Position numbers and translations under genes: made by a program. The notes beneath the pieces are model-generated. The model had not been told where the DNA came from. It ran no database searches and worked only from the letters and a program-made list of their open reading frames with translations. From positions 91,964 through 155,963 of the forward strand of contig JADGBR010000001.1 in NCBI GenBank assembly GCA_015231405.1: a DNA stretch of 64,000 nucleotides, read 5' to 3'. This DNA is from Candidatus Omnitrophota bacterium (lineage in GTDB: Bacteria; Omnitrophota; Gorgyraeia; Tantalellales; Tantalellaceae). The first letter of the stretch is position 1. Every line of letters begins with the position of its first letter. Below, piece after piece: positions 18,349-57,846 of the stretch.

Positions 18349-18372
18349 TAAAAAAGCTGAAGTATTAGTTAA

Positions 18373-20195: not shown

Positions 20196-20213
20196 AACCG
20201 GGGGTATATGAGT

Positions 20214-20335
20214 TTGTTGTCAGTGATCAGTTGCCGGTTTCCGGTTCAGGAAGATGGATCATTTGTAATTGGCTGGGGGAAAATAGCCAATATGAACAGA
20301 CAACGGGCAACGGACAACAGACAATAGGCAACTGA
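20214..20335. repeat. GTT-phased heptamers (tttgttg tcagtga tcagttg ccggttt ccggttc) and AAC-phased heptamers x6 (gaacaga caacggg caacgga caacaga caatagg caactga)
   Basis: Between trpC and trpF. Both arms show 7-nt phasing. The right arm ends 3 nt before the trpF ATG. Confidence 0.65.
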
Positions 20336-20338
20336 CAT

Positions 20339-22157: not shown

Positions 22158-22963
22158 ACAGGATAGATCTGACATTTGAACGATTAAGGAAAGAAGGTAA
22201 AAAGGCGTACATCCCCTATGTGACGGCGGGCGACCCGGATATGGCCGTCTCCGAGAAGATAATACGTTCGCTGGCGTTATCCGGGGCCGATATCATAGAG
22301 ATAGGCATACCTTTCTCCGACCCGATAGCTGACGGTCCGACAATACAACGGGCTGTTACGCGCTCTTTATCCGGCGGCTGTACGGTAAAAAAGGTCATGT
22401 TCATGGCCCGCCGTCTCCGGAAAAGTATTCTAGCGCCTTTCGTTTTCATGACATATTACAATATTATCTTTAACCACGGGGTCGAGAAGTTCGTGAAAGA
22501 TTCCATCGCGAACGGAGTTGACGGCGTTATCGTTCCTGACCTTCCGCTTGAGGAATCGAAGGAACTGGCCGATATTTCCAGGAAGGCGGGATTTTCTCTT
22601 GTCGCTCTCGCGGCGCCGACCACGTCCCCGGAAAGATTCAAAAAAATATCGTCCATGGCCGGAGGGTTCATCTATTATGTTTCTTTGACGGGTGTCACGG
22701 GTGCTAAAGCGGCGGAAGCCGCCGAGATAGGACGGAAGGTAAGAGGCCTTAAAAAGGTTACGGATAAACCTGTTTGCGTCGGGTTCGGTGTATCCGGCCC
22801 GGCACTCGCCCGCGAGATAGCCGCTTCGGCAGATGGGGTGATAGTCGGGAGCGCTTTGATAAAACTTATCGAGAAGGATCCCGATAATAAGGGAAGGATG
22901 CCGCGGGAAATAGAGATGTTTTCCCGTTCTATCGCAGAGGCAGTGCATTCCGTAAGAAAATGA
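22154..22963 (+). CDS. trpA: tryptophan synthase alpha chain
   Basis: Overlaps the trpB stop. IPYVTAGDP...[14 protein letters not shown]. Confidence 0.9.
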
Positions 22964-23391
22964 GAATACTCGGACTGGATATGGGGACTAAAAGGATAGG
23001 CGTGGCGCTTTCCGACGAAATGGGGATGCTTGCCCAGGGGAAGGGATTCATTATTAGAAAAGGAACAGGTCCTACGCTCAAAGAGATAAGGGATATCGTG
23101 CTGACTGAAGGAGTGATAAGGATAGTCATCGGACTGCCGCTTAATATGGACGGCTCCGAAGGAGAAAGAGCTAAGGACGCGAGATCCTTCGCTCTCATTG
23201 TGGAAAAGGATACGGGTAAAGAGGTGATACTCTGGGATGAAAGGCTCAGCACGAAGGAAGTGGAGGATATTATGATCGAAGCCGATCTCTCAAGGAGAAA
23301 GCGTAAAGGCCTGGTCGATAAAATGGCTGCGCAGGTGATACTGCAGGGGTATCTTGACTTTCAAAATGCGTCCCGTGAGTTAGCCAACTGA
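22960..23391 (+). CDS. ruvX: Holliday-junction resolvase-like nuclease YqgF/RuvX
   Basis: [19 protein letters not shown]; 143 aa. Confidence 0.85.
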   Translation: MRILGLDMGTKRIGVALSDEMGMLAQGKGFIIRKGTGPTLKEIRDIVLTEGVIRIVIGLPLNMDGSEGERAKDARSFALIVEKDTGKEVILWDERLSTKEVEDIMIEADLSRRKRKGLVDKMAAQVILQGYLDFQNASRELAN

Positions 23392-32294: not shown

Positions 32295-32905
32295 TCATCT
32301 TAATTATTTTCGGCGTAGTACTGGCCTATTTGCTGGGGTCTTTGCCGACGGCGTATATATTCGGTAAAACACTGAAAAATATCGATATCAGGGAGCACGG
32401 GAGCGGCAATATGGGCGCGACCAATGTTTTCAGAACAGTCGGGAAAACTCCCGGGTTGATAGTTCTTGTCATCGATTTCCTGAAAGGGCTTTTAGCCGTC
32501 ACTATGATCCCGATCATCCTGAAAAGATTTATTCCTGCATACGCGGAAAATAGCGCGTGGATACTTATATTATTTGGGGTAGCCGTAATATGCGGCCACG
32601 TTTGGACTATATTCCTTAATTTCAAAGGGGGTAAAGGCGTCGCGACGACAGCCGGTGTCCTTGCCGGAATATCGCCGCTTATCCTGATCCTATGTCTGGC
32701 GGTTTTTTCGACGGTATTTTATATATGGAGATATGTTTCCCTTGGTTCGATAATTGCCGCGTTATTCCTCCCGATATTTGCAGTGATCTTCAATAACAAT
32801 ATCTACTATGTTTTATTTTGTTCGGGGTTAACGATACTCGCTATAATAAAGCATAGAGAGAATATCAGGCGGCTTATCAGGGGGGAGGAGAAGAGACTGA
32901 TATGA
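32291..32905 (+). CDS. plsY: glycerol-3-phosphate acyltransferase PlsY
   Basis: GSGNMGATNVFR, NFKGGKGVAT; multi-TM. Confidence 0.9.
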   Translation: MIILIIFGVVLAYLLGSLPTAYIFGKTLKNIDIREHGSGNMGATNVFRTVGKTPGLIVLVIDFLKGLLAVTMIPIILKRFIPAYAENSAWILILFGVAVICGHVWTIFLNFKGGKGVATTAGVLAGISPLILILCLAVFSTVFYIWRYVSLGSIIAALFLPIFAVIFNNNIYYVLFCSGLTILAIIKHRENIRRLIRGEEKRLI

Positions 32906-32987
32906 GAATGGTGTCTACGGGAATATAAAATACGATTTTAATCAGTTAACCCTGCCAAGTAAACAAAAAAAAAGCCAGTATTAATTC

Positions 32988-33016
32988 TTGATTTCACTTC
33001 CCTGGTGAAGTATAAT
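32988..33016 (+). promoter_or_regulatory. near-consensus sigma70 promoter TTGATT-17-TATAAT in AT-rich islet
   Basis: TTGATT at 32988-32993, 17-nt spacer, TATAAT at 33011-33016. Lies in a visibly AT-rich spacer 88 nt upstream of the orphan ORF at 33104. Confidence 0.6.
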
Positions 33017-33103
33017 TAGTCTTGTTAACCAACTTAAAAGGAAAATAATAAATAAAATACTTTTACAAATCTTTAAAAAAGAACTAAAAAAAAGCAGGTT
33101 AAA

Positions 33104-33469
33104 ATGAAGCAACTAGTATACAAAACACTTGAGGGGAACAATCCAAGAAAAAAAGAAGTTTCGATACAGGAGATCGAAGATTGCGCCATAACTCAAGTGA
33201 AAAAAGAATGGACCTGCAAATATTTTGTAAAATCAACTCATGTCTCAAGATCTGAAGAGGACCTTAATAAATGGGTCTCAAGAAATAAAAAAAGCGATAA
33301 GAACGTGAAGAGTTGCCATCTGTTCAAGGAGATCGATACTGAGCGGAATACCACAAAAGTCGTATGTAAAGTTCTTGGCGAATTCTTCGCCATTACCGGT
33401 CTTACGGTAATAAAGATCGTTTATATCAATTCATTAAAAATATTCATGTCAAACACAAAGGGGAATTGA
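33104..33469 (+). CDS. hypothetical Lys-rich protein (orphan, no recognisable domain)
   Basis: 121-aa ORF in a region much more AT-rich than its neighbours, driven by the strong promoter above. Four Cys residues, basic, hydrophobic C-terminal tail FFAITGLTVIKIVYI. No family recognised by eye. Confidence 0.45.
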   Translation: MKQLVYKTLEGNNPRKKEVSIQEIEDCAITQVKKEWTCKYFVKSTHVSRSEEDLNKWVSRNKKSDKNVKSCHLFKEIDTERNTTKVVCKVLGEFFAITGLTVIKIVYINSLKIFMSNTKGN

Positions 33470-33657
33470 AGTGAAGGAATTATTGCGTTCATTCATGGTA
33501 TTTATGGCATTCGTAAAGCTCAGCATGATCAAGCTGCAATTATCCGATTGCGAGAATAAAGTACGGGCCAGATAAGCAGATAATTTGACGGGTTCGCAAA
33601 TCCCAGTCAATTACCTCCTGGACCTGAATGGTGTGTCGCCTTTCACGGTCAGGACAA

Positions 33658-33690
33658 ACGGAGATGGCGTAAGCCGTCTCCGTTTTTTTT
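33658..33690 (+). terminator. rho-independent terminator (11-bp stem, GUAA loop, 7-8 U)
   Basis: ACGGAGATGGC-gtaa-GCCGTCTCCGT followed by TTTTTTT. Ends the transcript that starts at the 33011 promoter. ORF 33585-33803 spans it and is therefore rejected. Confidence 0.8.
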
Positions 33691-34008
33691 ACCCACTGAT
33701 GGATCTAGTCCAATTTCCCCTCTCCACTATCCACCAATTCTCCGAGCACTACCCATTATCAATTTTCAACCCAACCCGGTATCTCATCCACACACCTCAT
33801 TGATAGTGTAACAATTTATGCTGACTTTCATCATGCGCGCGGCGAGGTGTGGACTTCCTCTTCAAGCCTTCCCCTGGGAATTTAACAACGACTTTAACAT
33901 GCCGTTTTTAGACCTTGCGCATTCACCCCTCCTCCGCCTTCGGATTCGGAGGATGAGCCGCAAGCAAGGAGGTTGTCATAAAAACGTCATGTAAAAGGCT
34001 AAAATTTC

Positions 34009-34024
34009 CAAAGGGGCCCCTTTG
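34009..34024. repeat. perfect 16-bp palindrome CAAAGGGGCCCCTTTG
   Basis: Self-complementary with no loop, so it is a DNA-level dyad, a typical dimeric-regulator site. About 350 bp upstream of the XRE gene. Confidence 0.6.
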
Positions 34025-34104
34025 CTTAAAGAGGATATCCACACCTTGACCCTTCCCGTAATGAAAAATCCCAGGAATCTCCAGGTCTTTGCGAAAGGGG
34101 TGAG

Positions 34105-34258
34105 GGCGTGAAGGAGATGGGGTTCTTCGTAAGGCACTTTGCTGTCCCGATATCCAAAGTAGCCTTGTGCGTGGACCTTGCAAATGTTACAGCCGAGGAC
34201 ACAAACCCAACAAGAAGTTTGCAAAGTGCCTGTAGAAGGTTCCCATCTCCTTCACGCC
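34105..34258. repeat. 154-bp element bounded by imperfect 38-bp inverted repeats (MITE-like or long hairpin)
   Basis: Arm 34105-34142 vs arm 34221-34258. Perfect matches of 17 bp (GGCGTGAAGGAGATGGG / CCCATCTCCTTCACGCC) and 10 bp (GGCACTTTGC / GCAAAGTGCC) flank an 11-bp mismatched patch. 78-nt centre. Confidence 0.55.
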
Positions 34259-34338
34259 ATCGTCACGAGAAGCATGAAACTTTTGAAAGTCAGCAAGGTT
34301 CTTGACAGTATGGATCCCGATGGATCTCATTGATACTA

Positions 34339-34367
34339 TTGCGTAGCGGAATTGACGGTGATATACT
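34339..34367 (+). promoter_or_regulatory. putative promoter TTGCGT-17-TATACT placing the TSS at the XRE ATG (leaderless mRNA)
   Basis: The -10 TATACT ends 6 nt before ATG 34374. No Shine-Dalgarno precedes the ATG. Confidence 0.35.
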
Positions 34368-34373
34368 GACTCC

Positions 34374-34742
34374 ATGAGTTTTTCACGCAATCTTAGATCC
34401 GCCAGGATGAAGGCGGGAATGTCTCAGAAAGTTCTTGCGCTTGGATTGAAAGTGAAACAGTCCACGGTATCAAAATGGGAACAGGGGAAGAGGACTCCCG
34501 GAATGAAGAAGATATCCCTTATCGCCCAGTCGCTTAGAACTTCGATATCGAGCCTGGTAAAATATAAAAAGGAAAACGTTCTTTTATCCCATGACCTGGC
34601 AGTGAGACTCCTGGACCAGTTGAACGCGGCTTCGTTCATTGTCGAGCGCCTCATTAAGGGTGATACTCCTGACAGGGGTGTCCTGATCGCAGCTCAAAAA
34701 CAGATCAGGGACGCGGTAAAGATATTGAGGTCTTCAAGATGA
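34374..34742 (+). CDS. XRE-family (Cro/cI-type) helix-turn-helix transcriptional regulator
   Basis: LRSARMKAGMSQKVLALGLKVKQSTVSKWEQGKRTP is a canonical HTH_XRE. 122 aa. The stop overlaps the next gene start (ATGA). Confidence 0.8.
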   Translation: MSFSRNLRSARMKAGMSQKVLALGLKVKQSTVSKWEQGKRTPGMKKISLIAQSLRTSISSLVKYKKENVLLSHDLAVRLLDQLNAASFIVERLIKGDTPDRGVLIAAQKQIRDAVKILRSSR

Positions 34743-36124
34743 GATATACCCTTAAACTCTTCACGATCGTCATAGCGTTAATATCGTTACAGCACTGGCA
34801 GGCCAGGGCCGAGGAGAGCGACAGAGATCTGGTGATGAAAGGAGCCGATCTCGCGCGAAAAGGGAGGTACGACGAGGCGGTGAACGAGATCGATAAGGCG
34901 CTTAAGCTCAATTCAGGGAACCCTGCGGCCTATTACATCAGGGGGGTAGCCTGTTTTTATCAGGGTAACACAAAAAAGGCGCTGGGAGATTTCGATAAGG
35001 CAATAGACCTGAACCGTAAATACGCTGACGCGTACAATGGAAGAGGACTTGCCCTCGCCTCCGCCGGTCTGGCGGATCGCGCCTTAGAGGATTTTAATAC
35101 GACTTTAGAGCTTGACCCAAAGAACGCTTCGGCGTACATGAACCGGGCTGTTACTTATTTTAAGAAGAAACAATATGAGAAAAGTATGGCGGACGTCAAA
35201 AAAGCCGAATCGCTTGGAGCTAAAGTTAATTCAAGGTTCCTTTCCGATCTGAATATTTCCGTTGCGATCGATAATTTAAGGACGTGGGCCTTTGGTTTTA
35301 AAGGCGGGATACAGTTAAACCGAAAAGGAGGAGTTATGGGAATTCTGATAGGTATCGCGATAGTCGTTATCGCTTTCTCTTTGAGGATAATCCAACAATA
35401 TGAGACAGGAGTGGTTTTCCAGCTTGGGCGGTATTCAAGGACGCTTCATCCCGGTTTGAATTTCATAATACCGGTAATAGAGCACGCAAGGGTGGTCGAT
35501 ATGAGGATATCGACACATGACATACCCGAGCAGCAGGTTATAACCAAAGACAATGTTCCGGTAGCTATTAACGGGGTCGTGTATTTCAAGGTAGAGAACG
35601 CGCAAACGGCGGTCATAAAGGTGCAGAATTACACGTACGCCGTTTCACAGTACGCGCAAGCCGCGCTTAGGGATGTGGTAGGCGGGATGACACTCGACGA
35701 CCTTCTGACGGAAAGACAGAAGATCGGCGAAAAGATCGAGGAGAGCATACAGAAAGAGGCGGCATCCTGGGGCTTGCTGGTAACGGCGATTAAACTCCAG
35801 GATGTAAATATGCCCGAGGACCTTAAAAAGATCATGTCCAGACAAGCTTCCGCTGAAAGGGAAAAAAGGGCCACGATAACAAAAGCCGAAGGCGATAAAA
35901 TGGCCGCTTTGAATCTCGCGGAAGCGGCAAAAACTATGGCGGCGTCTCCCGGCGCCATGCAGCTAAGAACGCTTCAGACTATCGACGGCCTTGGGCCAAG
36001 CCCCTCAAATACCGTAGTTCTAGCGGTGCCGGTAGATATACTCGAACTAGCTCGGGGGCTTAATATCCAATTTTCGGAAAATGCTCAAAAACAGGTCAAC
36101 GTTGCGGTTGAAAAAAGGTCTTGA
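34739..36124 (+). CDS. signal peptide + TPR repeats + TM helix + SPFH/band-7 (stomatin/prohibitin-like) domain fusion protein
   Basis: N-terminal signal peptide (LFTIVIALISLQHWQARA); about 4 TPR units (AAYYIRGVACFYQGNTKKALGDFDKAIDLN...). TM helix GILIGIAIVVIAFSL, then SPFH core (VITKDNVPVAINGVVYFKVENAQ...AALRDVVGGMTLDDLL...) with a coiled-coil tail. Confidence 0.8.
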   Translation: MRYTLKLFTIVIALISLQHWQARAEESDRDLVMKGADLARKGRYDEAVNEIDKALKLNSGNPAAYYIRGVACFYQGNTKKALGDFDKAIDLNRKYADAYNGRGLALASAGLADRALEDFNTTLELDPKNASAYMNRAVTYFKKKQYEKSMADVKKAESLGAKVNSRFLSDLNISVAIDNLRTWAFGFKGGIQLNRKGGVMGILIGIAIVVIAFSLRIIQQYETGVVFQLGRYSRTLHPGLNFIIPVIEHARVVDMRISTHDIPEQQVITKDNVPVAINGVVYFKVENAQTAVIKVQNYTYAVSQYAQAALRDVVGGMTLDDLLTERQKIGEKIEESIQKEAASWGLLVTAIKLQDVNMPEDLKKIMSRQASAEREKRATITKAEGDKMAALNLAEAAKTMAASPGAMQLRTLQTIDGLGPSPSNTVVLAVPVDILELARGLNIQFSENAQKQVNVAVEKRS

Positions 36125-36195
36125 GTTTTACGAAGATCAGCATTATATTAATATAAGTTGTCATGTTTAATGATCTTATGTGGAAGGGGGGGGCG

Positions 36196-36822
36196 ATGAT
36201 GAGGAAAACAATATTTCTCGCGATTCAGATGCTGTTTATTTTTGGGAACGTCGCCTGTTTCGGTGCCGGACCTATCGAATTTGATTTTGAGCAGAGCGAG
36301 CAGACATGGTTCGTTCCGGATTGGGCGATCTCCCAGGATGATTGCGTCTGTAAGAACGCGATCCTCTCTGCAGTTCAGCCCTTTGAGGGTAAGCAATCCC
36401 TGGAGCTTCAATGCAAATTCCCGGGGAATAAATGGACCGGGGCCGTAGTGGAATTTGACGGTCAAATGGACCTGTCAGGATGCAAAGGGATAAGCGCCGA
36501 AGTGTATCTGCCCAAGGAAGTCAACAGTAATCTGCTTTTAGGACGGTTCTTTTTCACCGCCGGGGACAAATGGAGCTTTATAGAAAGCCGTAATACTACC
36601 CAGCTTAAACCCGGTGAATGGACCAAAATATCCGCGACATTTGATACCACCAACCCGAAAGGGACACCGAACTGGAAATTCAAGAGAGAACAGGGTAATC
36701 TTCAGGACAATATCAAGGATATACGCCGAGTTGGGGTTCGGATCGAATATAACGCGAATGAGTGGCAGGCCGGCGCTCCATATGAAGGTCCGGTGTATAT
36801 TGATAATGTCGTTATAGAATGA
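36196..36822 (+). CDS. secreted hypothetical protein, beta-sandwich / carbohydrate-binding-module-like
   Basis: Signal peptide MMRKTIFLAIQMLFIFGNVACFGA after RBS GGAAGGGGGGG. Trp/Asn-rich beta-strand pattern, C-terminal GPVYIDNVVIE. Family not identified. Confidence 0.6.
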   Translation: MMRKTIFLAIQMLFIFGNVACFGAGPIEFDFEQSEQTWFVPDWAISQDDCVCKNAILSAVQPFEGKQSLELQCKFPGNKWTGAVVEFDGQMDLSGCKGISAEVYLPKEVNSNLLLGRFFFTAGDKWSFIESRNTTQLKPGEWTKISATFDTTNPKGTPNWKFKREQGNLQDNIKDIRRVGVRIEYNANEWQAGAPYEGPVYIDNVVIE

Positions 36823-36905
36823 CCGATGAAGAAATCGTAGGGGCGGGGTTCCCTCGCCCCTATATATGTGGAAGTTTTGATTTCACACGCTTTTATACGC
36901 CGCCA

Positions 36906-38030: not shown

Positions 38031-38108
38031 CGGGATGTAGCGCAGTTTGGCTAGCGCACTAGTCTGGGGGACTAGGGGTCGCCGGTTCAAATCCGGCCAT
38101 CCCGACCA
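38031..38108 (+). tRNA. tRNA-Pro (anticodon GGG), CCA encoded
   Basis: Acceptor CGGGATG/CATCCCG, D-arm GCGCAGTTTGGCTAGCGC, anticodon stem CTAGT/ACTAG with loop CTGGGGG, T-arm GCCGG-TTCAAAT-CCGGC, discriminator A, then CCA. Confidence 0.85.
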
Positions 38109-38124: not shown

Positions 38125-38250
38125 AACAGAATACAGAATGGAGAATCCAGGATCCAGAATTTGGGATATTTTTAGGAGAGAGTGACCCTGATATAATCCC
38201 GAAAATTATTTTGGATTTTAGCTTCTGGCTTCAGTATTCCAGATTTAAGT
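38125..38250. repeat. NCCAGAA-family heptamers x6 (aacagaa tacagaa tggagaa tccagga tccagaa tttggga) and opposite-orientation TTCTGNN-phased heptamers x6 at 38209-38250
   Basis: Between tRNA-Pro and hom. Right array: ttttgga ttttagc ttctggc ttcagta ttccaga tttaagt. Confidence 0.7.
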
Positions 38251-38279: not shown

Positions 38280-39581
38280 ATGCGTTCAGTGAACATAGGG
38301 CTTATAGGCGCCGGTACCATAGGCGGCGGGGTCATAGACCTCATTGACCGTAACGGCAAGCTAATTTTCGACAGGACAGGAATTAAGCTCTTCTTGAAAA
38401 AGGTATGCGATAAAGATACGAAGAGGCTCGCTACTTTCAAGTCATTAAAAAAGTCCCAGTTTACCTCAGATCACAGGGAGATCCTTAACGATAAGGACAT
38501 AGATATCGTTATCGAGCTTATCGGAGGGATCAACCCGGCCAAGGAGATGGTCCTTAAAGCGCTCGGCGCGGGGAAACACGTTGTTACCGCCAATAAAGCC
38601 CTTCTCTCGGATTCATGGGACGAGATCTTCGATACGGCCCTTAAAAACAAGGTATTTGTGAATTTTGAGGCCAGCGTCGGCGGTGCCATTCCGATAATCC
38701 GTTGCCTAAAAGAGAGCTTCGTGACGAATAACCTGGAACTTGTTTACGGCATCCTCAACGGAACGACTAATTTCATACTGACTATGATGGACGAATGCGG
38801 ATATTCGTTCGACGAGGCCCTCAAGATCGCCCAGTCCAAGGGGATAGCCGAAAAGAACCCCGCGCTGGATATTAGCGGCGGAGATTCCGCGCAGAAACTC
38901 GCCATAATCCTTATACTCGGGTTCGGGGTCAAGGTATCGCCTAAAGATATCTTTACCGAAGGTATAGAGAACATAACTCCGCTGGACATTCAGTACGCGA
39001 AAAACTGGGGATATGTGATCAAGCTGTTGGCCATAGCTAAAAGGAAAGCGAAGGAGCTGCAGCTTAGGGTCCATCCTGCGCTTATCCCGGGGCATCATCT
39101 TCTTTCGGGGGTCAAGGGTGAGGATAACGCGGTATTCGTGAGGGGCGATTTTATAGGCGATTCGCTTCTTTACGGCAAAGGCGCCGGAAGCTGGCCGACG
39201 GCAAGTTCCGTTGTCAGCGACGTCGTAGACATAGCCAAACACGTCGTCTCCCATGGGGAAAGATCCCCCGCGACACACATATTGAGAACCCGGCGGGAAA
39301 GTTTCACTTTTCATGAGCACGATTCCTTCGATATCCCATACTATCTCAGGTTTTCCGTCATAGACAAACCGGGAGTTCTTGCGAAAATATCGACGATACT
39401 CGCGAGGAACAATATCAGCATAGAGAGGATGTACCAGGAGGTCAGGAAAGAGGGCCAATCCGTGCCGCTGGTAATGCTCACGCATAACGCCGTTGAAGGC
39501 AATATGAAAAAAGCCATCAGCGAGATCGATAAAATTGATGTCGTGACCGATAAGACAGTGGTCATACGGATAGAGGAGTGA
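38280..39581 (+). CDS. hom: homoserine dehydrogenase
   Basis: MRSVNIGLIGAGTIGGGV NAD-binding N-terminus, catalytic domain, C-terminal ACT domain. RBS AAGGAGTGAG. Confidence 0.9.
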   Translation: MRSVNIGLIGAGTIGGGVIDLIDRNGKLIFDRTGIKLFLKKVCDKDTKRLATFKSLKKSQFTSDHREILNDKDIDIVIELIGGINPAKEMVLKALGAGKHVVTANKALLSDSWDEIFDTALKNKVFVNFEASVGGAIPIIRCLKESFVTNNLELVYGILNGTTNFILTMMDECGYSFDEALKIAQSKGIAEKNPALDISGGDSAQKLAIILILGFGVKVSPKDIFTEGIENITPLDIQYAKNWGYVIKLLAIAKRKAKELQLRVHPALIPGHHLLSGVKGEDNAVFVRGDFIGDSLLYGKGAGSWPTASSVVSDVVDIAKHVVSHGERSPATHILRTRRESFTFHEHDSFDIPYYLRFSVIDKPGVLAKISTILARNNISIERMYQEVRKEGQSVPLVMLTHNAVEGNMKKAISEIDKIDVVTDKTVVIRIEE

Positions 39582-39603
39582 TCGAGAGGATAGAGAGAAG
39601 GGA

Positions 39604-39686
39604 TCCAGAAGCCTGAATATAGGATCCAGAACACGTAATAATTGAAAGGGCATGAACCGATCACTCCTGGATTCTGGCTTCTGAAT
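39604..39686. repeat. TCCAGAA heptamers at 39604 and 39625 (21 nt apart) plus inverted ttctggc ttctgaa at 39673-39686
   Basis: Between hom and thrC. Same unit family as the 38.1-kb, 47.6-kb and 61.6-kb loci. Confidence 0.65.
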
Positions 39687-39718
39687 TTTAACTGGGCTAT
39701 AGGGTCAGAGGGAAATAT

Positions 39719-40783
39719 ATGGGAATAATAGAGCGGTATAGGGAGTTCCTGCCGGTAACTGACAAAACTCCGGTGATCACGTTGGAGGAAGGTTCAACGC
39801 CGCTCATAAAGGCCGATCCTCTTTCGGATATCGTGGGGAAGGGTTATAGGGTTTGGCTGAAATTCGAGGGCCTTAACCCTACCGGGAGTTTTAAGGACAG
39901 GGGCATGACGGTAGCGGTCTCAAAAGCCGTCGAGGAAGGATCAAAGGCCGTAGTTTGCGCTTCTACCGGGAATACTTCGGCCTCCGCCGCAGCTTATTCG
40001 GCGCGGGCGGGAATAAAATGTGTCGTGATAATACCAGATGGCGCTATAGCCCTCGGAAAGCTCGCGCAGGCGCTCATCCATGGCGCTAAGGTCATAGCGG
40101 TAAGGGGTAATTTCGACCAGGCCCTTCTGATAGTCCGGGAAATGAGCGAAAAATATCCGATAACACTGGTTAATTCAGTGAATCCGTACAGGATAGATGG
40201 ACAAAAAACGGGATCTTTCGAGATCTGCGATATCCTCGGAAAAGCCCCCGAATACCATTCACTGCCGGTGGGTAACGCGGGAAATATTACGGCGTATTGG
40301 AAAGGGTACAAAGAATACCGCGAAAGAGGAAAGTCCCGGTCATTGCCCGTCATGATGGGCTTTCAGGCCGCTGGATCCGCACCTATCGTGGAGAAAAGGA
40401 TAATAAAAAAACCGGAGACAATAGCTACCGCGATAAAGATCGGTAACCCGGCCAGCTGGAAAACCGCCGAAGAGGCCAGGGATCAGTCAGGAGGGATCAT
40501 CGACAAGGTCACGGATGATGAGATACTTGAGGCTTATAAATTTCTGGCCGATAGGGTCGGGGTATTTGCCGAGCCGGCTTCGGCCGCAAGCGTAGCCGGT
40601 ATCATAAGAAAAGCCAGGGAAGGCTATTTTCCGGCAAATAGTGACCCTGACAATAAAAAAGATATAGTTTGCGTTTTGACAGGGCACGGGCTCAAAGACC
40701 CGGACAGGGCGATAAAATGCCTTGAGACCCCGGTAGCGGTTGACCCGGACCTGAAAGAGATAATTAAAAAGGCTGGGCTTTAG
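39719..40783 (+). CDS. thrC: threonine synthase
   Basis: PLP-lysine motif GSFKDRGMT; 354 aa short-form ThrC. Confidence 0.9.
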   Translation: MGIIERYREFLPVTDKTPVITLEEGSTPLIKADPLSDIVGKGYRVWLKFEGLNPTGSFKDRGMTVAVSKAVEEGSKAVVCASTGNTSASAAAYSARAGIKCVVIIPDGAIALGKLAQALIHGAKVIAVRGNFDQALLIVREMSEKYPITLVNSVNPYRIDGQKTGSFEICDILGKAPEYHSLPVGNAGNITAYWKGYKEYRERGKSRSLPVMMGFQAAGSAPIVEKRIIKKPETIATAIKIGNPASWKTAEEARDQSGGIIDKVTDDEILEAYKFLADRVGVFAEPASAASVAGIIRKAREGYFPANSDPDNKKDIVCVLTGHGLKDPDRAIKCLETPVAVDPDLKEIIKKAGL

Positions 40784-40786
40784 AAT

Positions 40787-41986
40787 ATGAAATACATTAT
40801 CCTGGTTCCGGACGGCATGGCCGGAGAACCGCTCGATGAGCTGGCAGGCCGTACATGTTTGGAGGCCGCCGATAAACCCAATATGGACCGGATCGCCAGG
40901 AGCGGCATCGTCGGCATGACATGGAATGTTCCCGAGAAAATGACGCCGGCGAGCGATGTGGCAACTCTTTCTATACTGGGTTACGACCCCGCAAAATATT
41001 ATTGCGGGAGAGGCCCGCTTGAAGCGGCGAATATGGGCATTGAGCTTGGGCCATCGAGTGTGGCTTTCAGGTTCAACTGGGTGACGTCGGATGGCGGAGT
41101 TATGGCCGATTACAGCGCCGGGCACATCTCTACAGGCGAGGGCATGGTTCTCGCCGAGCGGCTTTCAAAAGAGTTAGGGAGCGACAGGTTCAAATTCTAT
41201 CCCGGATTCAGTTATAGGAACATCATGGTCATGAATTGCAAGAATAAGGAAGAGGCGTCTAAGATATCGAAATTGAGGTGTTATCCTCCTCACGATATCA
41301 TGGACAGGCCGATAGATAAGCATTTCCCGGATAACCAGGAACTGTCAGGCCTGATAAAGCAGAGCGGGGAGGTACTGAAGAACCACGAAATAAATAAGGT
41401 AAGGATAGACCTGGGACAGAACCCGGCTAACATGATCTGGCTGTGGGGGCAGGGTAGAACACCTGATATGCCCAAATTCAAGGACGCTTATGGTTTGACA
41501 GGAGGGATCATATCCGCCGTGGATCTTATCAAGGGGATGGGGAAGATCCTTGGGCTTAGCGTCATTGATGTACCCGGAGCAACTGGTTATTACGATACCA
41601 ACTACGAAGGAAAAGCCGACGCGGCCCTGGAAGTGCTTAAGGATAAGGATTTCGTTTTTGTGCACGTTGAAGCGCCGGACGAGGCGGGCCATAACGGGGA
41701 CATACGTGCGAAGATCACGGCCATAGAGAATTTTGATTCAAGGCTTGTCGCGAGGATAATGAAAGGGGTCAGCGGACGTTATCCCTATAAGGTAATGGTA
41801 CTTCCCGACCATCCGACGCCGATCAAGAGGAGGACACATACCGCGGACCCTGTGCCTTTCGCGATAGCCGGCGAAGGTATCCAGCCCGACGGGGTAAGTG
41901 TTTTTACGGAAGCCGCGGCCAAGGCGGGTAGCATTGATGAGAAGAACGGCTATAAGCTCATGAAATTTTTTCTTAACACCAAATAA
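40787..41986 (+). CDS. apgM: cofactor-independent phosphoglycerate mutase, archaeal-type (ApgM) family protein; candidate non-orthologous homoserine kinase
   Basis: 399 aa of the metalloenzyme-superfamily ApgM/COG3635 type (MKYIILVPDGMA...). Sits between thrC and aspartate kinase in a cluster with no thrB. Confidence 0.7.
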   Translation: MKYIILVPDGMAGEPLDELAGRTCLEAADKPNMDRIARSGIVGMTWNVPEKMTPASDVATLSILGYDPAKYYCGRGPLEAANMGIELGPSSVAFRFNWVTSDGGVMADYSAGHISTGEGMVLAERLSKELGSDRFKFYPGFSYRNIMVMNCKNKEEASKISKLRCYPPHDIMDRPIDKHFPDNQELSGLIKQSGEVLKNHEINKVRIDLGQNPANMIWLWGQGRTPDMPKFKDAYGLTGGIISAVDLIKGMGKILGLSVIDVPGATGYYDTNYEGKADAALEVLKDKDFVFVHVEAPDEAGHNGDIRAKITAIENFDSRLVARIMKGVSGRYPYKVMVLPDHPTPIKRRTHTADPVPFAIAGEGIQPDGVSVFTEAAAKAGSIDEKNGYKLMKFFLNTK

Positions 41987-42001
41987 GAGGGGTGACGGCA
42001 G

Positions 42002-43231
42002 ATGAGTAAGAAAGATATAATTGTCCAGAAGTTCGGGGGAACAAGTGTGGCCACTCCGGAGAGGATAAAGAACGTGGCGAAAAAAGTTTCGGCATGTAAG
42101 AGGAAGGGATACGATGTAGTGGTGGTAGTGTCGGCCCTTGGCGAAACGACAGATGAGCTTATTAAGCTTGCGGATCAGATAGATACCGACCCGTCGGAAA
42201 GGGAGATGGACATGCTCCTTTCCACGGGTGAGCAGATATCGGTGGCTCTTTTGGCCATGGCGCTTCACAAAATAGGCGAGGAAGCCATTTCTTTTACGGG
42301 GGCTCAGGTCGGCATAATGACCGACACCAGCCATACTAAAGCGAGGATACTGGATATATCGACCGAACGCATTAAGAAAGAACTTGGAAAAGGAAAGATC
42401 GTAATAGTGGCGGGGTTCCAGGGGATAAGCCTCCATCATGAGATCACTACACTCGGCCGCGGCGGGTCGGATATGACAGCCGTCGCTTTGGCTAAAGTTC
42501 TTAAGGCTAAAATGTGCGAGATATACACTGACGTTAAAGGAATATATACCGCCGATCCCAGGATAGTCGGGAACGCGAGAAAACTCGACACTATATGCTA
42601 CGACGAGATGCTCGAGCTCGCGTCTTTGGGCGCTCAGGTCATGCAGGCGAGGAGCATGGAAGTCGCCTCGAAGTTCAATGTGCCTATACATGTGAGGTCA
42701 AGTTTTTCTGATGATAACGGAACTATTATCGGCAAGGAGGATAAGAAAATGGAAGAAGTACTGGTTAGAGGCGTTACCGTAAATAAAGGCGAGGCGAGGG
42801 TCATAGTTTCAGGCGTTCCCGATAAGCCGGGGGAAGCGAGCCGGTTGTTCGAGTATCTGGCCAAAGAGAACATCAACGTGGACATGATAATCCAGAATAA
42901 ATCCACTTCCGGGACGACCGATATCACTTTTACGGCACCGGAGTCATCGTTGGCCAGGACCCAGAAAGTTGTGGACAAGGCCTCTAAAGAGATGGGTTCC
43001 GCTGAAGTTAAATACGACAAAGATATCGCGAAACTTTCGGTTGTCGGCATCGGTATGCGCAGCCACGCGGGCGTCGCCGCGAAAATGTTCAAATGTCTCG
43101 CCTCGAAAAAGATAAATATCGAGATGATATCGACCAGCGAGATAAAGATATCCTGCGTAATAAAGAGGAAGGACGCCGATGAGGCTGTAAAGGCCCTTCA
43201 TAAAGCCTTTGGGCTGGACAAGGTCCGTTAA
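42002..43231 (+). CDS. lysC: aspartate kinase (monofunctional, with ACT domains)
   Basis: IVQKFGGTSVA N-terminus, kinase core, two C-terminal ACT domains. Confidence 0.9.
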   Translation: MSKKDIIVQKFGGTSVATPERIKNVAKKVSACKRKGYDVVVVVSALGETTDELIKLADQIDTDPSEREMDMLLSTGEQISVALLAMALHKIGEEAISFTGAQVGIMTDTSHTKARILDISTERIKKELGKGKIVIVAGFQGISLHHEITTLGRGGSDMTAVALAKVLKAKMCEIYTDVKGIYTADPRIVGNARKLDTICYDEMLELASLGAQVMQARSMEVASKFNVPIHVRSSFSDDNGTIIGKEDKKMEEVLVRGVTVNKGEARVIVSGVPDKPGEASRLFEYLAKENINVDMIIQNKSTSGTTDITFTAPESSLARTQKVVDKASKEMGSAEVKYDKDIAKLSVVGIGMRSHAGVAAKMFKCLASKKINIEMISTSEIKISCVIKRKDADEAVKALHKAFGLDKVR

Positions 43232-43245: not shown

Positions 43246-44868
43246 ATGAGGAAGATATTCATATACGACACGACTCTCCGTGACGGAGCGCAGTTCGAGG
43301 GGATATCTTTTACCGTCCAGGATAAACTTCGGATCTGCGAAAAACTCGACTCCCTGGGTATTGATTTCATAGAAGGCGGATGGCCGGGCGCCAATCCCAA
43401 GGAAAGCGAATTTTTCGAGGTAGCCTCAAAACAGCTAAAACTGAAAAGGTCAAAGCTTGTCGCCTTCGGGAGCACCCGGCGAGTTGACTCCAAGGTCGCA
43501 AAAGATGCCATAGTAAACGCTCTTTTGAAAGCTGGGACGGAATATGTCACTATTTTCGGTAAGACCTGGGACCTCCATGTGAAAGAGGTCCTCAGGACCT
43601 CTGAGAAAGAGAATCTCAAAATGATAAGCGATACCGTTTCTTTTCTCTCTGGGAAAGGAAGGAATGTCATTTATGACGCCGAGCATTTTTTTGACGGTTA
43701 CGAGAATAACCCCGTATATGCGGTGGAAACCCTCAAGGCGGCTTTCGACGCAGGGGCCGAAACCCTTGTGCTTTGCGATACTAACGGCGGGACTTTGACG
43801 GGAAGGGTATATGAGATAGTTGAGGAAGTTAAGGGAAAGATACACGCTCCGCTCGGGATACATACACATAACGACGCCGAGATGGCCGTCGCCAATTCGA
43901 TAGCGGCTGTCGAGGCCGGTTGCGTTCAGGTGCAGGGAACTTTTAACGGCTATGGCGAAAGGTGCGGTAACGCGAATCTTGTATCTATCGTTCCTGCGCT
44001 ACGCTTCAAGCTTGGATACGATTGCCTGTCGGATCTTGCCCTCATGGAGTTTACCGAGGCCTCCAAATATATAGCTGAGACCGCTAACATGAAACACCAT
44101 GACTCCCAGCCTTACGTCGGCTCTAGCGCTTTCGCCCACAAAGCCGGCGTTCACATAAACGCGATGATGAAGGATCCGAGGAGCTACGAACATATGGATC
44201 CGTCTAAGACCGGGAATAAAAGGCGTATACTCATTTCCGAACTTTCGGGCAGGTCAAGCATAGTCAAGAAAGCCGGTGAGATGGGGATCATGATGGACCA
44301 GGGTTCGCCTGAAGCGATGAAAATACTCAACCAGGTCCAGGATATGGAAAAGGAAGGATACCAGTTCGAGCTGGCGGAAGCTTCGCTTATGCTTCTTATG
44401 AAAAGGGCTTCGTCCTTCTCTCAAACATTTTTTTCGATAGATGACCTCAGGGTCATAGTCGAGAAAAGGTTCGGCGGGAATATCGTTTCCGAGGCTACGG
44501 TGAAGGTCAGGGTCGGAGATGTTGAAAGGCATACGGTTTCGATGGGTGACGGCCCGGTCCACGCGATGGACCAGGCGCTCAGGAAATCGCTGGTCGACTA
44601 TTACCCTCATCTCAAAAAAATGCATCTCTCTGATTTTAGGGTGAGGGTGCTCGATGAGAGATCGGGAACCGCAGCCAAGGTCCGGGTGCTAATACAGAGC
44701 CAGGATGAACAGGACTCGTGGTGGACGGTGGGCGTATCGGAAAATATAATCGAGGCCAGCTGGAAAGCCATTCTGGATTCCATTGAATACAAACTGCTTA
44801 AGGACATGCCCGCGGGAAAGGATAAAAAGGCCTCAAAACAAAAGAACACTTCCGGCCGGGCGAGATAA
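43246..44868 (+). CDS. cimA: (R)-citramalate synthase / 2-isopropylmalate synthase family (CimA-like long form)
   Basis: IYDTTLRDGAQ DRE-TIM barrel N-terminus, HTHND, C-terminal LeuA-dimer regulatory domain. 540 aa in a Thr/Ile-pathway neighbourhood. Confidence 0.6.
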   Translation: MRKIFIYDTTLRDGAQFEGISFTVQDKLRICEKLDSLGIDFIEGGWPGANPKESEFFEVASKQLKLKRSKLVAFGSTRRVDSKVAKDAIVNALLKAGTEYVTIFGKTWDLHVKEVLRTSEKENLKMISDTVSFLSGKGRNVIYDAEHFFDGYENNPVYAVETLKAAFDAGAETLVLCDTNGGTLTGRVYEIVEEVKGKIHAPLGIHTHNDAEMAVANSIAAVEAGCVQVQGTFNGYGERCGNANLVSIVPALRFKLGYDCLSDLALMEFTEASKYIAETANMKHHDSQPYVGSSAFAHKAGVHINAMMKDPRSYEHMDPSKTGNKRRILISELSGRSSIVKKAGEMGIMMDQGSPEAMKILNQVQDMEKEGYQFELAEASLMLLMKRASSFSQTFFSIDDLRVIVEKRFGGNIVSEATVKVRVGDVERHTVSMGDGPVHAMDQALRKSLVDYYPHLKKMHLSDFRVRVLDERSGTAAKVRVLIQSQDEQDSWWTVGVSENIIEASWKAILDSIEYKLLKDMPAGKDKKASKQKNTSGRAR

Positions 44869-47571: not shown

Positions 47572-47627
47572 AAATAAGAAACGAAATAAAGAATCAAGCA
47601 TCCAGAATTAAGGATCCAGAATATGGA
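47572..47627. repeat. eight A-phased heptamers (aaataag aaacgaa ataaaga atcaagc atccaga attaagg atccaga atatgga)
   Basis: Between valS and the pseudouridine synthase. The last unit contains that gene's ATG. ATCCAGA x2. Confidence 0.65.
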
Positions 47628-55766: not shown

Positions 55767-56240
55767 ATGAAGCTCATCGAACTGTTAGATCCGGAAGCGG
55801 TAACCGTCAGTATCCAGTCAAACAATAAAGAGGGCGTTCTTTCGGAGTTGGTAGATCTTCTGGTTAAATCCGGAAGCATAAAAAAAGCTGAGAAAGATAT
55901 GGTCTTGAAGAAGCTCAAAGAAAGAGAGGTCCTCGGGTCAACGGGCATAGGTAAAGGGGTCGGAATACCTCACGCAAAGTGTCCTTTCGTCAAGAAGATG
56001 GTAGCGGCTATCGGGATATCGAAAGAACCCGTGGATTTTAAATCATTGGACGGCGAGCCCACGCATATTTTCTTCCTTTTGATAGCGCCGGGAGACAACC
56101 CGGGACCGCACCTGAAATCACTCGCGAAGATCTCGCGTCTATTGGATGACAAATTCATCAGGGATCGGTTGCGGTCCGCGCAGGACAGCGCGCAGGTCCT
56201 CAAAATAATTAAGGATGAGGAACAGAAGAAGCTCGTGTAG
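55767..56240 (+). CDS. ptsN: PTS EIIA-Ntr (nitrogen regulatory IIA protein)
   Basis: GIGKGVGIPHAK active-site His; 157 aa of the PTS_EIIA_2 fold. Confidence 0.85.
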   Translation: MKLIELLDPEAVTVSIQSNNKEGVLSELVDLLVKSGSIKKAEKDMVLKKLKEREVLGSTGIGKGVGIPHAKCPFVKKMVAAIGISKEPVDFKSLDGEPTHIFFLLIAPGDNPGPHLKSLAKISRLLDDKFIRDRLRSAQDSAQVLKIIKDEEQKKLV

Positions 56241-56300
56241 AGTTCTTCTGACCTCTTTGCTCTAAGGGCCGCCGACCGGCGGCGGTACGCACCGGGGATC

Positions 56301-57548
56301 ATGAAAAGACTGAAATGGCTATATCCTGGAATGCTCATCAAACGGTGGATAAGTCTGTCCGTTATCGGGATAGTCATGGTCGCTATGGGTTTTGTGATCG
56401 TCATAGCCGAAAAAATACCGGAGAACAAGACGATCGCCGGGCTCATAATAATCCTCGGGATAATGATCATGGTCTACGCCGTGAAAAGGATATTTAAAAC
56501 ACTTGTCACAGCCCTCGTGCCCCAAAGTTATGACAGCCTCCTGGTCGATAAGGTATACGAGAAACACGTGCTTGTCAGGGGGCCGAAGATAGTAGTTATA
56601 GGCGGCGGCACGGGTCTTTCAACTCTTCTCACAGGTCTAAAGACCAGGACCAGCAATATTACCGCCATAGTTACCGTAGCGGACGATGGCGGGTCTTCAG
56701 GAAGGCTAAGGAAAGAATTCGACGTACTCCCACCGGGCGATATAAGGAACTGCCTGGTGGCTCTTTCAGATTCGGAGGATATACTGGGTCCTCTTTTCCA
56801 ATTCAGGTTCGAGGAGGGTAAAGAGCTCGAGGGGCATAATTTCGGGAATCTTTTCATTACGGCTCTTTCCAAGATCACCGGAGATTTTAACAGGGCCATA
56901 AGGGAGTCAAGCAAGGTCCTGAACATAAGGGGAAGCGTCTTCCCGGCGACGCTAGATAAAGTTCAGCTTATTGCCGAAAGGCAGGACGGAAGGAGGATAA
57001 CCGGGGAAAGCCGAATAAGGGAAGAGAGCGGCAGTCCCATAGTCAGGATGTACATTACTCCGGAAGATTGCGAAGCCTCTAGTGAGGCTCTCGAAGCTAT
57101 AAAAAAAGCGGATGTAATAGTGCTTGGTCCCGGGAGTCTTTATACGAGCGTTATGCCTAATCTCCTCATATCCGGCATTAAAGACACGATAACCGGTGCC
57201 AGGGGCATAAAGATCTATGTTTGCAACATTATGACCGAGTACGGCGAGACGGACGACTATTCCGTGAGTGAGCACGCAAAGGCGGTCATAAAACATACCG
57301 CCGGCAGGTTCATGGATTATTGCGTTTGTAATACAAGAAAAATACCCGAGAGGCTGTCCGAGAAGTATAAAATAAAAAAACAGTTTCCCGTAAAGACCAC
57401 TGCCAGGGACGAGGAGTGGTTCAGCGACGAAAAGATACTTCTTATAAAGGCGGATATCGCCAGCATGGAAGAGTTCGTCAGGCATGATCCGAGAAAGCTT
57501 TCGGACGTCATTATGAATATCTATAACGCGGCGAAGCACGGCGGGTAG
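56301..57548 (+). CDS. yvcK: YvcK/CofD-family gluconeogenesis-factor-like protein with N-terminal two-TM anchor
   Basis: About 70-aa hydrophobic N-terminus (two predicted TM helices). YvcK core PKIVVIGGGTGLSTLLTGLK...VADDGGSSGRLR...LGPGSLYTS. Confidence 0.85.
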   Translation: MKRLKWLYPGMLIKRWISLSVIGIVMVAMGFVIVIAEKIPENKTIAGLIIILGIMIMVYAVKRIFKTLVTALVPQSYDSLLVDKVYEKHVLVRGPKIVVIGGGTGLSTLLTGLKTRTSNITAIVTVADDGGSSGRLRKEFDVLPPGDIRNCLVALSDSEDILGPLFQFRFEEGKELEGHNFGNLFITALSKITGDFNRAIRESSKVLNIRGSVFPATLDKVQLIAERQDGRRITGESRIREESGSPIVRMYITPEDCEASSEALEAIKKADVIVLGPGSLYTSVMPNLLISGIKDTITGARGIKIYVCNIMTEYGETDDYSVSEHAKAVIKHTAGRFMDYCVCNTRKIPERLSEKYKIKKQFPVKTTARDEEWFSDEKILLIKADIASMEEFVRHDPRKLSDVIMNIYNAAKHGG

Positions 57549-57555
57549 CGAGAGG

Positions 57556-57828
57556 ATGATCATAAAAAAAGAGGTGATAGTCAGGAACGGTTCAGGTCTG
57601 CACGCGCGGCCAGCGGCGATGTTCGTTCAGATCGCAAATAAATACTCGAGCGTCATCAAAATAGTTAAGGACGGGCAGGAAGTCAACGGCAAGTCAATAA
57701 TGGGTATACTGATGCTTGCCGCGGAAAAAGGCGCAAGGGTCGTCCTGACAGTTGACGGCGTTGACGCGGAGGCGGCCGCCCAGGAGTTGGAGACTTTCCT
57801 CCTTAAGGAAAAAGATCCGGAGATGTAA
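57556..57828 (+). CDS. ptsH: phosphocarrier protein HPr/NPr
   Basis: GLHARPAAMF with His15; 90 aa. Confidence 0.9.
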   Translation: MIIKKEVIVRNGSGLHARPAAMFVQIANKYSSVIKIVKDGQEVNGKSIMGILMLAAEKGARVVLTVDGVDAEAAAQELETFLLKEKDPEM

Positions 57829-57846
57829 GGGATAGGTTCTAAGATC

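What the first reader, a model, noticed from the sequence alone, without database searches (positions are those of the whole stretch)
38280..43231. Threonine cluster hom-thrC-apgM-lysC lacks thrB; ApgM-family metalloenzyme sits where homoserine kinase is expected
Homoserine dehydrogenase, threonine synthase and aspartate kinase are present, but there is no GHMP-type homoserine kinase. A 399-aa archaeal-type cofactor-independent phosphoglycerate-mutase-family protein starts 3 nt after thrC. Comparative-genomics work has predicted members of this family found in thr operons to be non-orthologous replacements of ThrB (a phosphotransfer onto a hydroxyl is chemically compatible with the phosphopentomutase/iPGM superfamily).
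Basis: partly seen in the sequence, partly recalled or inferred. Interest (0 to 1): 0.6.

Follow-up and report, generated by a model that had tools for sequence, protein, structure and literature searches.

The report
Known alternative homoserine kinase (HomK)

Summary
The ApgM-like gene starts 3 nt after thrC. No GHMP kinase is present in the cluster or anywhere in the 64-kb window.

- The protein passes NCBIfam TIGR02535 'proposed homoserine kinase' (526.7 bits, cut-off 446.3).
- It fails the model that genuine archaeal phosphoglycerate mutases pass (NF003104: 317 bits, cut-off 489).
- It keeps the nucleophile Ser56 and all metal ligands.
- It has Glu295 where 60 of 60 archaeal mutases have Lys. 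This is the published HomK specificity residue.
- It also lacks four conserved mutase arginines.

Linkage to hom, thrC and lysC recurs across Omnitrophota and several other phyla. The family (HomK/ThrB2) was shown to be needed for threonine synthesis in Bacteroides. BT2402 and a Dehalococcoides homologue complement E. coli thrB::kan (GapMind 2026 preprint).

The phosphate donor is unknown and is probably not ATP. Absence of thrB from the whole genome could not be checked. The source is a Candidatus Omnitrophica MAG, and NCBI names the protein a phosphoglycerate mutase, which is probably wrong.

The parts
38031..38108 (+). tRNA-Pro (anticodon GGG), between gpsA and hom. It marks the upstream edge of the cluster.
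   Evidence: ARAGORN. Rfam RF00005, 64.1 bits. A tRNA sits at the same place in relatives.
38280..39581 (+). hom, homoserine dehydrogenase with a C-terminal ACT domain. It makes the substrate, L-homoserine.
   Evidence: NF004976, 489.8 bits (cut-off 205). Pfam NAD_binding_3, Homoserine_dh and ACT.
39719..40783 (+). thrC, threonine synthase. It consumes O-phosphohomoserine.
   Evidence: TIGR00260, 331.7 bits (cut-off 167.1). Pfam PALP.
40787..41986 (+). homK (thrB2), a 399-aa homoserine phosphotransferase of the cofactor-independent phosphoglycerate-mutase fold. Its key residues are the nucleophile Ser56, the metal ligands D9, D298, H302, D341, H342 and H351, and the specificity residue Glu295.
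   Evidence: TIGR02535, 526.7 bits (cut-off 446.3). NF003104 (genuine PGM model), 317.3 bits, below its cut-off of 489. Alignment to PDB 3kd8 and 2zkt. Residue statistics. Control scores on genuine mutases.
42002..43231 (+). lysC, a monofunctional aspartate kinase with two ACT domains. It catalyses the first step of the aspartate pathway.
   Evidence: NF005155, 597.4 bits (cut-off 346). Pfam AA_kinase plus ACT domains.
43246..44868 (+). cimA, citramalate synthase (threonine-independent route to isoleucine). It lies 14 nt after lysC and is conserved in this position in relatives.
   Evidence: TIGR00977, 737.7 bits (cut-off 450). Synteny.

Best explanation
The 399-aa gene encodes HomK (also called ThrB2 or TIGR02535). 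HomK is a metal-dependent phosphotransferase that evolved from archaeal-type cofactor-independent phosphoglycerate mutase. It replaces the GHMP homoserine kinase ThrB.

Proposed mechanism:
1. A phosphate donor phosphorylates Ser56 at a two-metal centre (ligands D9, D341, H342 and D298, H302, H351).
2. L-homoserine, made by the upstream Hom, binds with its amino group against Glu295.
3. The phosphate passes from Ser56 to the gamma-hydroxyl of homoserine, giving O-phosphohomoserine.
4. The ThrC encoded 3 nt upstream converts O-phosphohomoserine to threonine.

What is shown here: family membership, the residue pattern and the gene linkage.
What is shown in the literature for orthologues: a requirement for threonine synthesis, and complementation of E. 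coli thrB.
What is inferred: the ping-pong mechanism through phospho-Ser56, and the identity of the donor. The donor is probably not ATP and probably not phosphoglycerate. Phosphoserine is the published guess.
For: 1. TIGR02535 'proposed homoserine kinase' scores 526.7 bits (cut-off 446.3).
2; genuine mutases (T. acidophilum P0121, Thermococcus P0122) score only 280-330 on TIGR02535. They pass NF003104 (558-628 bits, cut-off 489), on which the window protein scores 317.
3; window Glu295 aligns with Lys in PDB 3kd8 and 2zkt and in 60 of 60 archaeal mutase-type proteins. Arg109, Arg110, Arg113 and Arg220 of the mutases are Tyr, Ser, His and Trp here. D9, S56, D298, H302, D341, H342 and H351 are invariant in both groups.
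4. Glu295 and the catalytic residues are invariant in 50 close homologues. Glu295 is present in all 85 sequences from 84 loci plus the window.
5; hom-thrC-homK-lysC-cimA is conserved through Omnitrophota. homK is also next to hom, thrC or lysC in Goldiibacteriota, FCPU426, Ratteibacteria, Phycisphaerae, a deltaproteobacterium and a Methanobacteriaceae MAG.
6. (literature): BT2402 mutants need threonine. BT2402 and DET_RS08350 rescue E. coli thrB::kan. E299 of BT2402 is the proposed specificity residue, against Lys in mutases. thrB and thrB2 show complementary occurrence.
7; there is no GHMP kinase in the window.
Against: - No experiment exists on this protein or on any Omnitrophota member.
- Its identity to the validated BT2402 and DET_RS08350 could not be measured, because their sequences were not obtainable with these tools.
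- A canonical thrB, and a separate phosphoglycerate mutase, elsewhere in the genome could not be looked for.
- The margin between TIGR02535 (526.7) and the broad TIGR00306 subfamily model (514.6) is small.
- An earlier BT2402 complementation attempt failed (PMC7311316). The later rescue was weak (OD600 increase of 0.14 in 47 h).
- The window is almost entirely on the + strand, and the neighbourhood is syntenic over more than 15 kb in close relatives. Part of the linkage is therefore inherited gene order, not independent evidence.
Confidence: 0.85

Rival explanations
1. It is a genuine glycolytic cofactor-independent phosphoglycerate mutase, as NCBI and JGI name it, and it merely sits in a biosynthetic gene array.
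For: Pfam PhosphMutase plus Metalloenzyme domains. It passes TIGR00306 (514.6 bits, cut-off 320) and NF003242 'cofactor-independent phosphoglycerate mutase' (548.7 bits, cut-off 426). It matches solved mutases at E = 1e-64. No other phosphoglycerate mutase is seen in the window.
Against: It fails NF003104, the model that real archaeal mutases pass. Those mutases in turn fail NF003242 and TIGR02535, so NF003242 describes the HomK clade under a mutase name. Lys295 and four arginines that are invariant in 60 mutases are replaced here. Identity to the mutase group is only 31-37%. The thr linkage recurs across phyla.
Confidence: 0.04
2. It is a phosphotransferase of the same clade acting on a different hydroxy-amino acid. 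One example is L-threonine to threonine-O-3-phosphate for cobalamin synthesis, as proposed for CbiU (Dehre_1608) and for the cobD-linked homologues.
For: Family members next to cobalamin genes have been proposed to have this role (PMC4285132; GapMind 2026 Appendix 3). Those also carry the Glu residue.
Against: No cob or cbi genes are near it. It lies between thrC and lysC, directly after hom and thrC, and this holds across lineages. It passes TIGR02535.
Confidence: 0.05
3. It is a conventional ATP-dependent homoserine kinase on a new fold, which is what the first reader's proposed assay assumes.
For: It functionally replaces an ATP-dependent enzyme. E. coli complementation shows only that the needed donor is present in E. 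coli.
Against: The alkaline-phosphatase/iPGM fold has no known nucleotide-binding site and works through a phospho-serine intermediate (established knowledge of the superfamily). The catalytic Ser and the metal ligands are fully retained. The authors of the family description also expect a non-ATP donor.
Confidence: 0.06

Closest known systems
HomK / ThrB2 / TIGR02535 (BT2402 of Bacteroides thetaiotaomicron; DET_RS08350 of Dehalococcoides mccartyi)
   Same: Same HMM family, scoring above the trusted cut-off. D9 and S56 carry the same residue numbers as in BT2402. Glu is at the specificity position. The gene lies next to hom and thrC on the same strand.
   Different: The phylum is different (Candidatus Omnitrophota). 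The operon contains separate hom and lysC genes plus cimA, not the fused aspartate kinase-homoserine dehydrogenase of the Bacteroides operon. Identity to BT2402 was not measured. This member is untested experimentally.
Archaeal cofactor-independent phosphoglycerate mutase ApgM (PDB 2zkt from P. horikoshii; 3kd8 and 3idd from T. acidophilum)
   Same: Same two-domain fold family (E about 1e-64), same nucleophilic Ser and same six metal ligands.
   Different: Only 31-37% identity. The substitutions relative to the mutases are K295E, R109Y, R110S, R113H, R220W and H143Y. It fails NF003104. It is linked to threonine genes, not to glycolysis genes.
ThrB, GHMP-family homoserine kinase (E. coli type)
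   Same: Same pathway step and same product, O-phosphohomoserine. It occupies the operon position that thrB often holds.
   Different: Unrelated fold, no ATP-binding GHMP motif, and probably a different phosphate donor.
ThrH, phosphoserine:homoserine phosphotransferase of Pseudomonas aeruginosa (HAD family)
   Same: It is a precedent for making O-phosphohomoserine without ATP, by transfer from another phospho-ester (cited).
   Different: It is not homologous: it has a HAD fold with an Asp nucleophile. Whether HomK uses phosphoserine is speculation.

Membership tests
HomK / ThrB2 (TIGR02535) | Scores above the curated cut-off of TIGR02535, while genuine mutases fall below it | tested here: met
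   The window protein scores 526.7 bits against a cut-off of 446.3. T. acidophilum and Thermococcus mutases score 279.9 and 330.5.
HomK / ThrB2 (TIGR02535) | Glu at the specificity position (E299 of BT2402), where mutases have Lys | tested here: met
   Glu295 aligns with Lys of 3kd8 and 2zkt. It is the only Glu-versus-Lys column: 18 of 18 Glu against 60 of 60 Lys. Glu is present in 85 of 85 homologues.
HomK / ThrB2 (TIGR02535) | Catalytic serine and metal-coordinating residues retained | tested here: met
   D9, S56, D298, H302, D341, H342 and H351 are invariant in both the HomK-type and the mutase-type sets.
HomK / ThrB2 (TIGR02535) | Encoded near hom and thrC and on the same strand | tested here: met
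   It starts 3 nt after thrC, with hom upstream. The arrangement recurs in relatives of several phyla.
HomK / ThrB2 (TIGR02535) | Genome lacks a canonical thrB (complementary occurrence) | not testable with these tools
   No GHMP kinase is present in the 64-kb window. The rest of the MAG could not be retrieved.
HomK / ThrB2 (TIGR02535) | Forms O-phosphohomoserine, or rescues a thrB mutant | not testable with these tools
   This has been shown only for BT2402 and DET_RS08350, in the literature.
Cofactor-independent phosphoglycerate mutase (ApgM proper, NF003104) | Scores above the cut-off of the equivalog model that characterised archaeal mutases pass | tested here: not met
   NF003104 gives 317.3 bits against a cut-off of 489. 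Genuine mutases score 558-628.
Cofactor-independent phosphoglycerate mutase (ApgM proper, NF003104) | Conserved cationic residues of the mutase clade (window positions R109, R110, R113, R220, K295) | tested here: not met
   All five are invariant in 60 mutase-type sequences. Here they are Y, S, H, W and E. That they bind substrate is inferred, not shown.
Cofactor-independent phosphoglycerate mutase (broad subfamily, TIGR00306 / Pfam PF10143 + PF01676) | Domain architecture and subfamily HMM | tested here: met
   TIGR00306 gives 514.6 bits (cut-off 320). PF10143 and PF01676 are both present. This is superfamily-level membership only.
ThrB (GHMP homoserine kinase) | GHMP ATP-binding motif and fold | tested here: not met
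   No ORF in the window carries the motif. There is no tblastn hit.
PhpG-type phosphonoformyl transferase (NF038358) | Score above the curated cut-off | tested here: not met
   241.2 bits against a cut-off of 545.
CbiU-type L-threonine phosphotransferase (proposed) | Located in a cobalamin operon or next to cobD | tested here: not met
   The neighbours are hom, thrC, lysC and cimA. No cob genes were seen in the window.

The most novel reading that the evidence does not exclude
The enzyme may be a phospho-amino-acid:homoserine phosphotransferase, for example phosphoserine + homoserine giving serine + O-phosphohomoserine. It would act through phospho-Ser56, and a single amino-acid pocket (Glu295) would serve both donor and acceptor. 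Threonine synthesis in Omnitrophota and the many other HomK-bearing lineages would then spend no ATP at this step and would be coupled to the serine pathway. The loss of all five mutase-specific cationic residues seen here argues against phosphoglycerate as the donor and fits this idea. The idea is a published speculation, not an original one.
Probability: 0.3. Interest if true: 0.45.

Novelty: already known. Interest (0 to 1): 0.15.

Why it matters
The practical value is in annotation. This protein, and essentially all of its roughly 120 nearest relatives in public databases, are named 'cofactor-independent phosphoglycerate mutase'. NCBIfam NF003242 carries that name yet describes the HomK clade. 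As a result, pathway reconstructions for Omnitrophota and other uncultured phyla will wrongly report a threonine gap, an apparent auxotrophy, and a spurious glycolytic enzyme. The one scientifically open point is the phosphate donor of HomK. This locus adds another member to test but no new handle on that question.

Tried and rejected
- Retrieving the source contig. Exact-sequence look-ups with the window protein and its 100%-identical database entry P0001 found nothing on record. The genome-contig scan did not contain the source genome, with a best hit of 66% identity. A genome-wide search for thrB or gpm was therefore impossible.
- Regulatory RNA upstream of hom or thrC. Rfam found only tRNAs at gathering score. 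At E up to 1 the only extra hit was a chance ROSE_2 match inside hom.
- Promoter and terminator scans gave no more than shuffled sequence does.
- Folding of the hom-thrC spacer and of the hom leader gave z-scores of -0.22 and -1.2, not distinguishable from shuffles.
- Genes inserted inside the cluster in relatives were examined as possible clues to the donor. They are CstA between homK and lysC, and a DFP/CoaB-like protein, a TPM-domain protein and LemA between thrC and homK. None suggests a donor-generating partner.
- BT2402 residue numbers D274, H278 and H325, as quoted in the preprint, do not map onto this protein by simple offset. I relied on alignment to solved mutases and on group-specific conservation instead.
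- No structure prediction was run. The match to solved structures is already E = 1e-64, and the tool returns no coordinates for measuring distances.
Full report
**What is in the sequence**

Four ORFs lie head to tail on the + strand:
- hom, 38280-39581. The longer TTG-initiated ORF from 38211 is not needed, because the NF004976 alignment begins at residue 1 of the ATG form.
- thrC, 39719-40783.
- a 399-aa ORF, 40787-41986.
- lysC, 42002-43231.

The thrC stop and the next ATG are separated by three bases, TAG-AAT-ATG. The remaining spacers are 137, 15, 14 and 5 nt, and the array continues into cimA (43246-44868) and valS. A tRNA-Pro(GGG) at 38031-38108 separates gpsA from hom.

All four enzymes pass curated NCBIfam cut-offs and have the expected Pfam domains. 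The 399-aa protein carries PF10143 (PhosphMutase) and PF01676 (Metalloenzyme).

No ORF of at least 70 aa in any frame of the window has the GHMP motif. A recalled E. coli ThrB sequence finds nothing by tblastn. Ten otherwise unassigned ORFs carry unrelated domains.

**Source organism**

A 100%-identical database protein (P0001) comes from a Candidatus Omnitrophica MAG, on a contig of 490,973 bp. It is named 'cofactor-independent phosphoglycerate mutase'. The contig could not be retrieved, and the genome is not among the species representatives scanned.

**Which clade the protein belongs to**

On NCBIfam it scores as follows:

| Model | Name and type | Bits | Cut-off |
|---|---|---|---|
| NF003242 | 'cofactor-independent phosphoglycerate mutase', equivalog | 548.7 | 426 |
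| TIGR02535 | 'proposed homoserine kinase' | 526.7 | 446.3 |
| TIGR00306 | apgM, broad subfamily | 514.6 | 320 |
| NF003104 | equivalog for 2,3-BPG-independent mutase | 317.3 | 489 |

As a control I scored two genuine archaeal mutases, the T. acidophilum protein solved as 3kd8 and a Thermococcus orthologue of 2zkt. They behave in the opposite way. NF003104 gives 558-628 bits (pass), TIGR02535 gives 280-330 (fail) and NF003242 gives 286-332 (fail).

Four distant thr-linked or unlinked relatives score like the window protein. They come from Methanobacteriaceae, Methanotrichaceae, a deltaproteobacterium and Goldiibacteriota. NF003242 and TIGR02535 therefore describe one and the same clade, and the mutase name attached to NF003242 is what propagates into public annotation.

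**Residues**

Alignment to the solved mutases places window Glu295 (hvEapDeaGH) opposite Lys (niKatDvaGH, hfKptDaaGH).

I collected 60 mutase-type proteins from Thermococcales and Thermoplasmatales with a profile of the two PDB sequences. I aligned them with the window protein and 17 of its homologues.

The nucleophile and all metal ligands (D9, S56, D298, H302, D341, H342, H351) are invariant in both groups. Position 295 is Glu in 18 of 18 and Lys in 60 of 60. Four arginines invariant in the mutases (window positions 109, 110, 113, 220) are Tyr, Ser, His and Trp, and His143 is Tyr.

Glu295 and the catalytic set are also invariant in 50 close homologues. Glu295 is present in all 85 sequences drawn from 84 loci plus the window. 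Identity to the mutase group is 31-37%, against 48-68% within the thr-linked group.

That the lost cationic residues bind phosphoglycerate in the mutases is my inference from their charge and conservation. It was not tested.

**Gene context elsewhere**

Three look-ups of homologues with annotated neighbours show gpsA-hom-thrC-X-lysC-cimA-valS in two of the three homologues looked up (L001; L003 and L004). They show hom-thrC-X with a different upstream region in Candidatus Omnitrophus magneticus.

I ran tblastn of the window's proteins against all 84 fetched loci, of which 80 came from a scan of one genome per species. The order is conserved through Omnitrophota. X also lies next to hom, thrC or lysC in:
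- Ratteibacteria (L016)
- Goldiibacteriota (L068)
- FCPU426 (L073)
- Phycisphaerae (L080)
- a deltaproteobacterium (L084)
- a Methanobacteriaceae MAG (L070)

In Methanosarcinales, Methanothrix and Desulfuromonadales loci no thr gene lies within 6 kb, yet the Glu is kept.

Among close relatives the whole 15-kb neighbourhood is syntenic. That part of the linkage is inherited order, and the cross-phylum cases are the informative ones. No locus contained a ThrB hit.

**What is already known**

- TIGRFAMs curators proposed TIGR02535 as a homoserine kinase replacement (reported in PMC7311316).
- Ashniev et al. 2022 named it ThrB2. They showed complementary occurrence with thrB in gut genomes and operon linkage (PMC9026213).
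- BT2402 mutants of B. thetaiotaomicron need threonine, but a first complementation attempt failed (PMC7311316).
- The GapMind 2026 preprint reports that BT2402 and the diverged DET_RS08350 rescue E. coli thrB::kan. It names the family HomK and identifies S56 as nucleophile and E299 (Lys in mutases) as the specificity residue. It argues from glycerate kinase co-occurrence that phosphoglycerate is not the donor, and it speculates on phosphoserine (10.1101/2024.10.14.618325).
- A paralogous role, L-threonine phosphorylation for cobalamin, was proposed for cob-linked members (PMC4285132).

**Mechanism**

My best-supported account is a ping-pong phosphotransfer. A donor phosphorylates Ser56 at the two-metal site. 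Homoserine binds with its ammonium group on Glu295. The phosphate then moves to the gamma-hydroxyl, and ThrC takes the product.

Membership and residues are shown here. Function is shown for orthologues in the literature. The intermediate and the donor are inferred.

All five mutase-specific cationic residues are gone. This independently fits the published view that phosphoglycerate is not the donor.

**Rivals**

- A genuine mutase is contradicted by the failed NF003104 score and by the residue replacements.
- A threonine-phosphate-forming paralogue is contradicted by the context.
- An ATP-dependent kinase on this fold is unlikely on general knowledge of the superfamily, but it is not excluded by any test here.

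**Verdict**

The finding is real and its interpretation is right, but it is a member of a described, HMM-defined and genetically validated family. What remains is an annotation correction and the open donor question. Neither is specific to this locus.

Noticed in passing
window 38128-38165, 39598-39633 (inverted copy 39664-39690), 47590-47621: The exact 10-mer GGATCCAGAA occurs four times (38150, 39601, 39622, 47612). About 0.1 exact occurrences would be expected by chance. All four are intergenic and on the + strand. They sit within runs of 7-nt periodic units (xCAGAAT / CCAGGAT) upstream of hom, in the hom-thrC spacer and just before the gene after valS. The same spacers in relatives lack the motif. 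It may be a genome-specific intergenic repeat or an operator-like site. Allowing one mismatch, the count is not above shuffles.
   Followed up: partly
window 40787-41986 and database relatives P0001-P0120: NCBIfam NF003242 (PRK04200) is typed 'equivalog' and named 'cofactor-independent phosphoglycerate mutase'. It outscores TIGR02535 on HomK-type proteins, and genuine archaeal mutases fail it. It therefore appears to mislabel the whole HomK clade in PGAP annotations. Only the Candidatus Omnitrophus magneticus entry is named 'putative homoserine kinase'.
   Followed up: yes
window 32900-36900: There is a stretch of about 4 kb between plsY and gpsA, with GC down to 0.42 at 32-34 kb. It holds a 121-aa ORF without Pfam hits, an XRE-type HTH protein (34374-34742), a TPR + SPFH/Band-7 fusion (34739-36124) and a 219-aa protein with a signal-like N-terminus (36163-36822). 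Relatives L001 and L003 have only one ORF of about 123 aa there, so this may be an insertion.
   Followed up: partly
window 38031-38108: A tRNA-Pro(GGG) lies between gpsA and hom. A tRNA occupies the same position in several Omnitrophota relatives.
   Followed up: partly
L010 7216-8853, L011, L019, L022, L031, L049, L058, L064; L012 5339-5974, L034 3150-5414, L043, L045, L051: In many Omnitrophota relatives the cluster is interrupted. A CstA-family membrane protein lies between homK and lysC. A DFP/CoaB-like protein, sometimes with a TPM-domain protein and LemA, lies between thrC and homK. The tight thrC-homK-lysC spacing of the window is therefore not universal.
   Followed up: partly
window 1-64000: Almost every gene is on the + strand and the GC skew is positive in every 2-kb bin, so the whole window lies on one leading-strand replichore arm. 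Shared orientation is therefore weak evidence for operons here.
   Followed up: no
window about 11500-23000 and 43246-44868: By N-terminal sequence, read by eye, his genes (11.5-16.1 kb) and trp genes (16.2-23 kb) lie upstream. Citramalate synthase follows lysC. The organism appears to make several amino acids itself, including isoleucine by the threonine-independent citramalate route.
   Followed up: no
window 55767-59634: A nitrogen-type PTS set is present: an EIIA-2 domain protein, a CofD/YvcK-family protein, HPr and Enzyme I (PEP-utilising). It is noted because PEP was once suggested as a HomK donor. No linkage to the thr cluster is evident.
   Followed up: no
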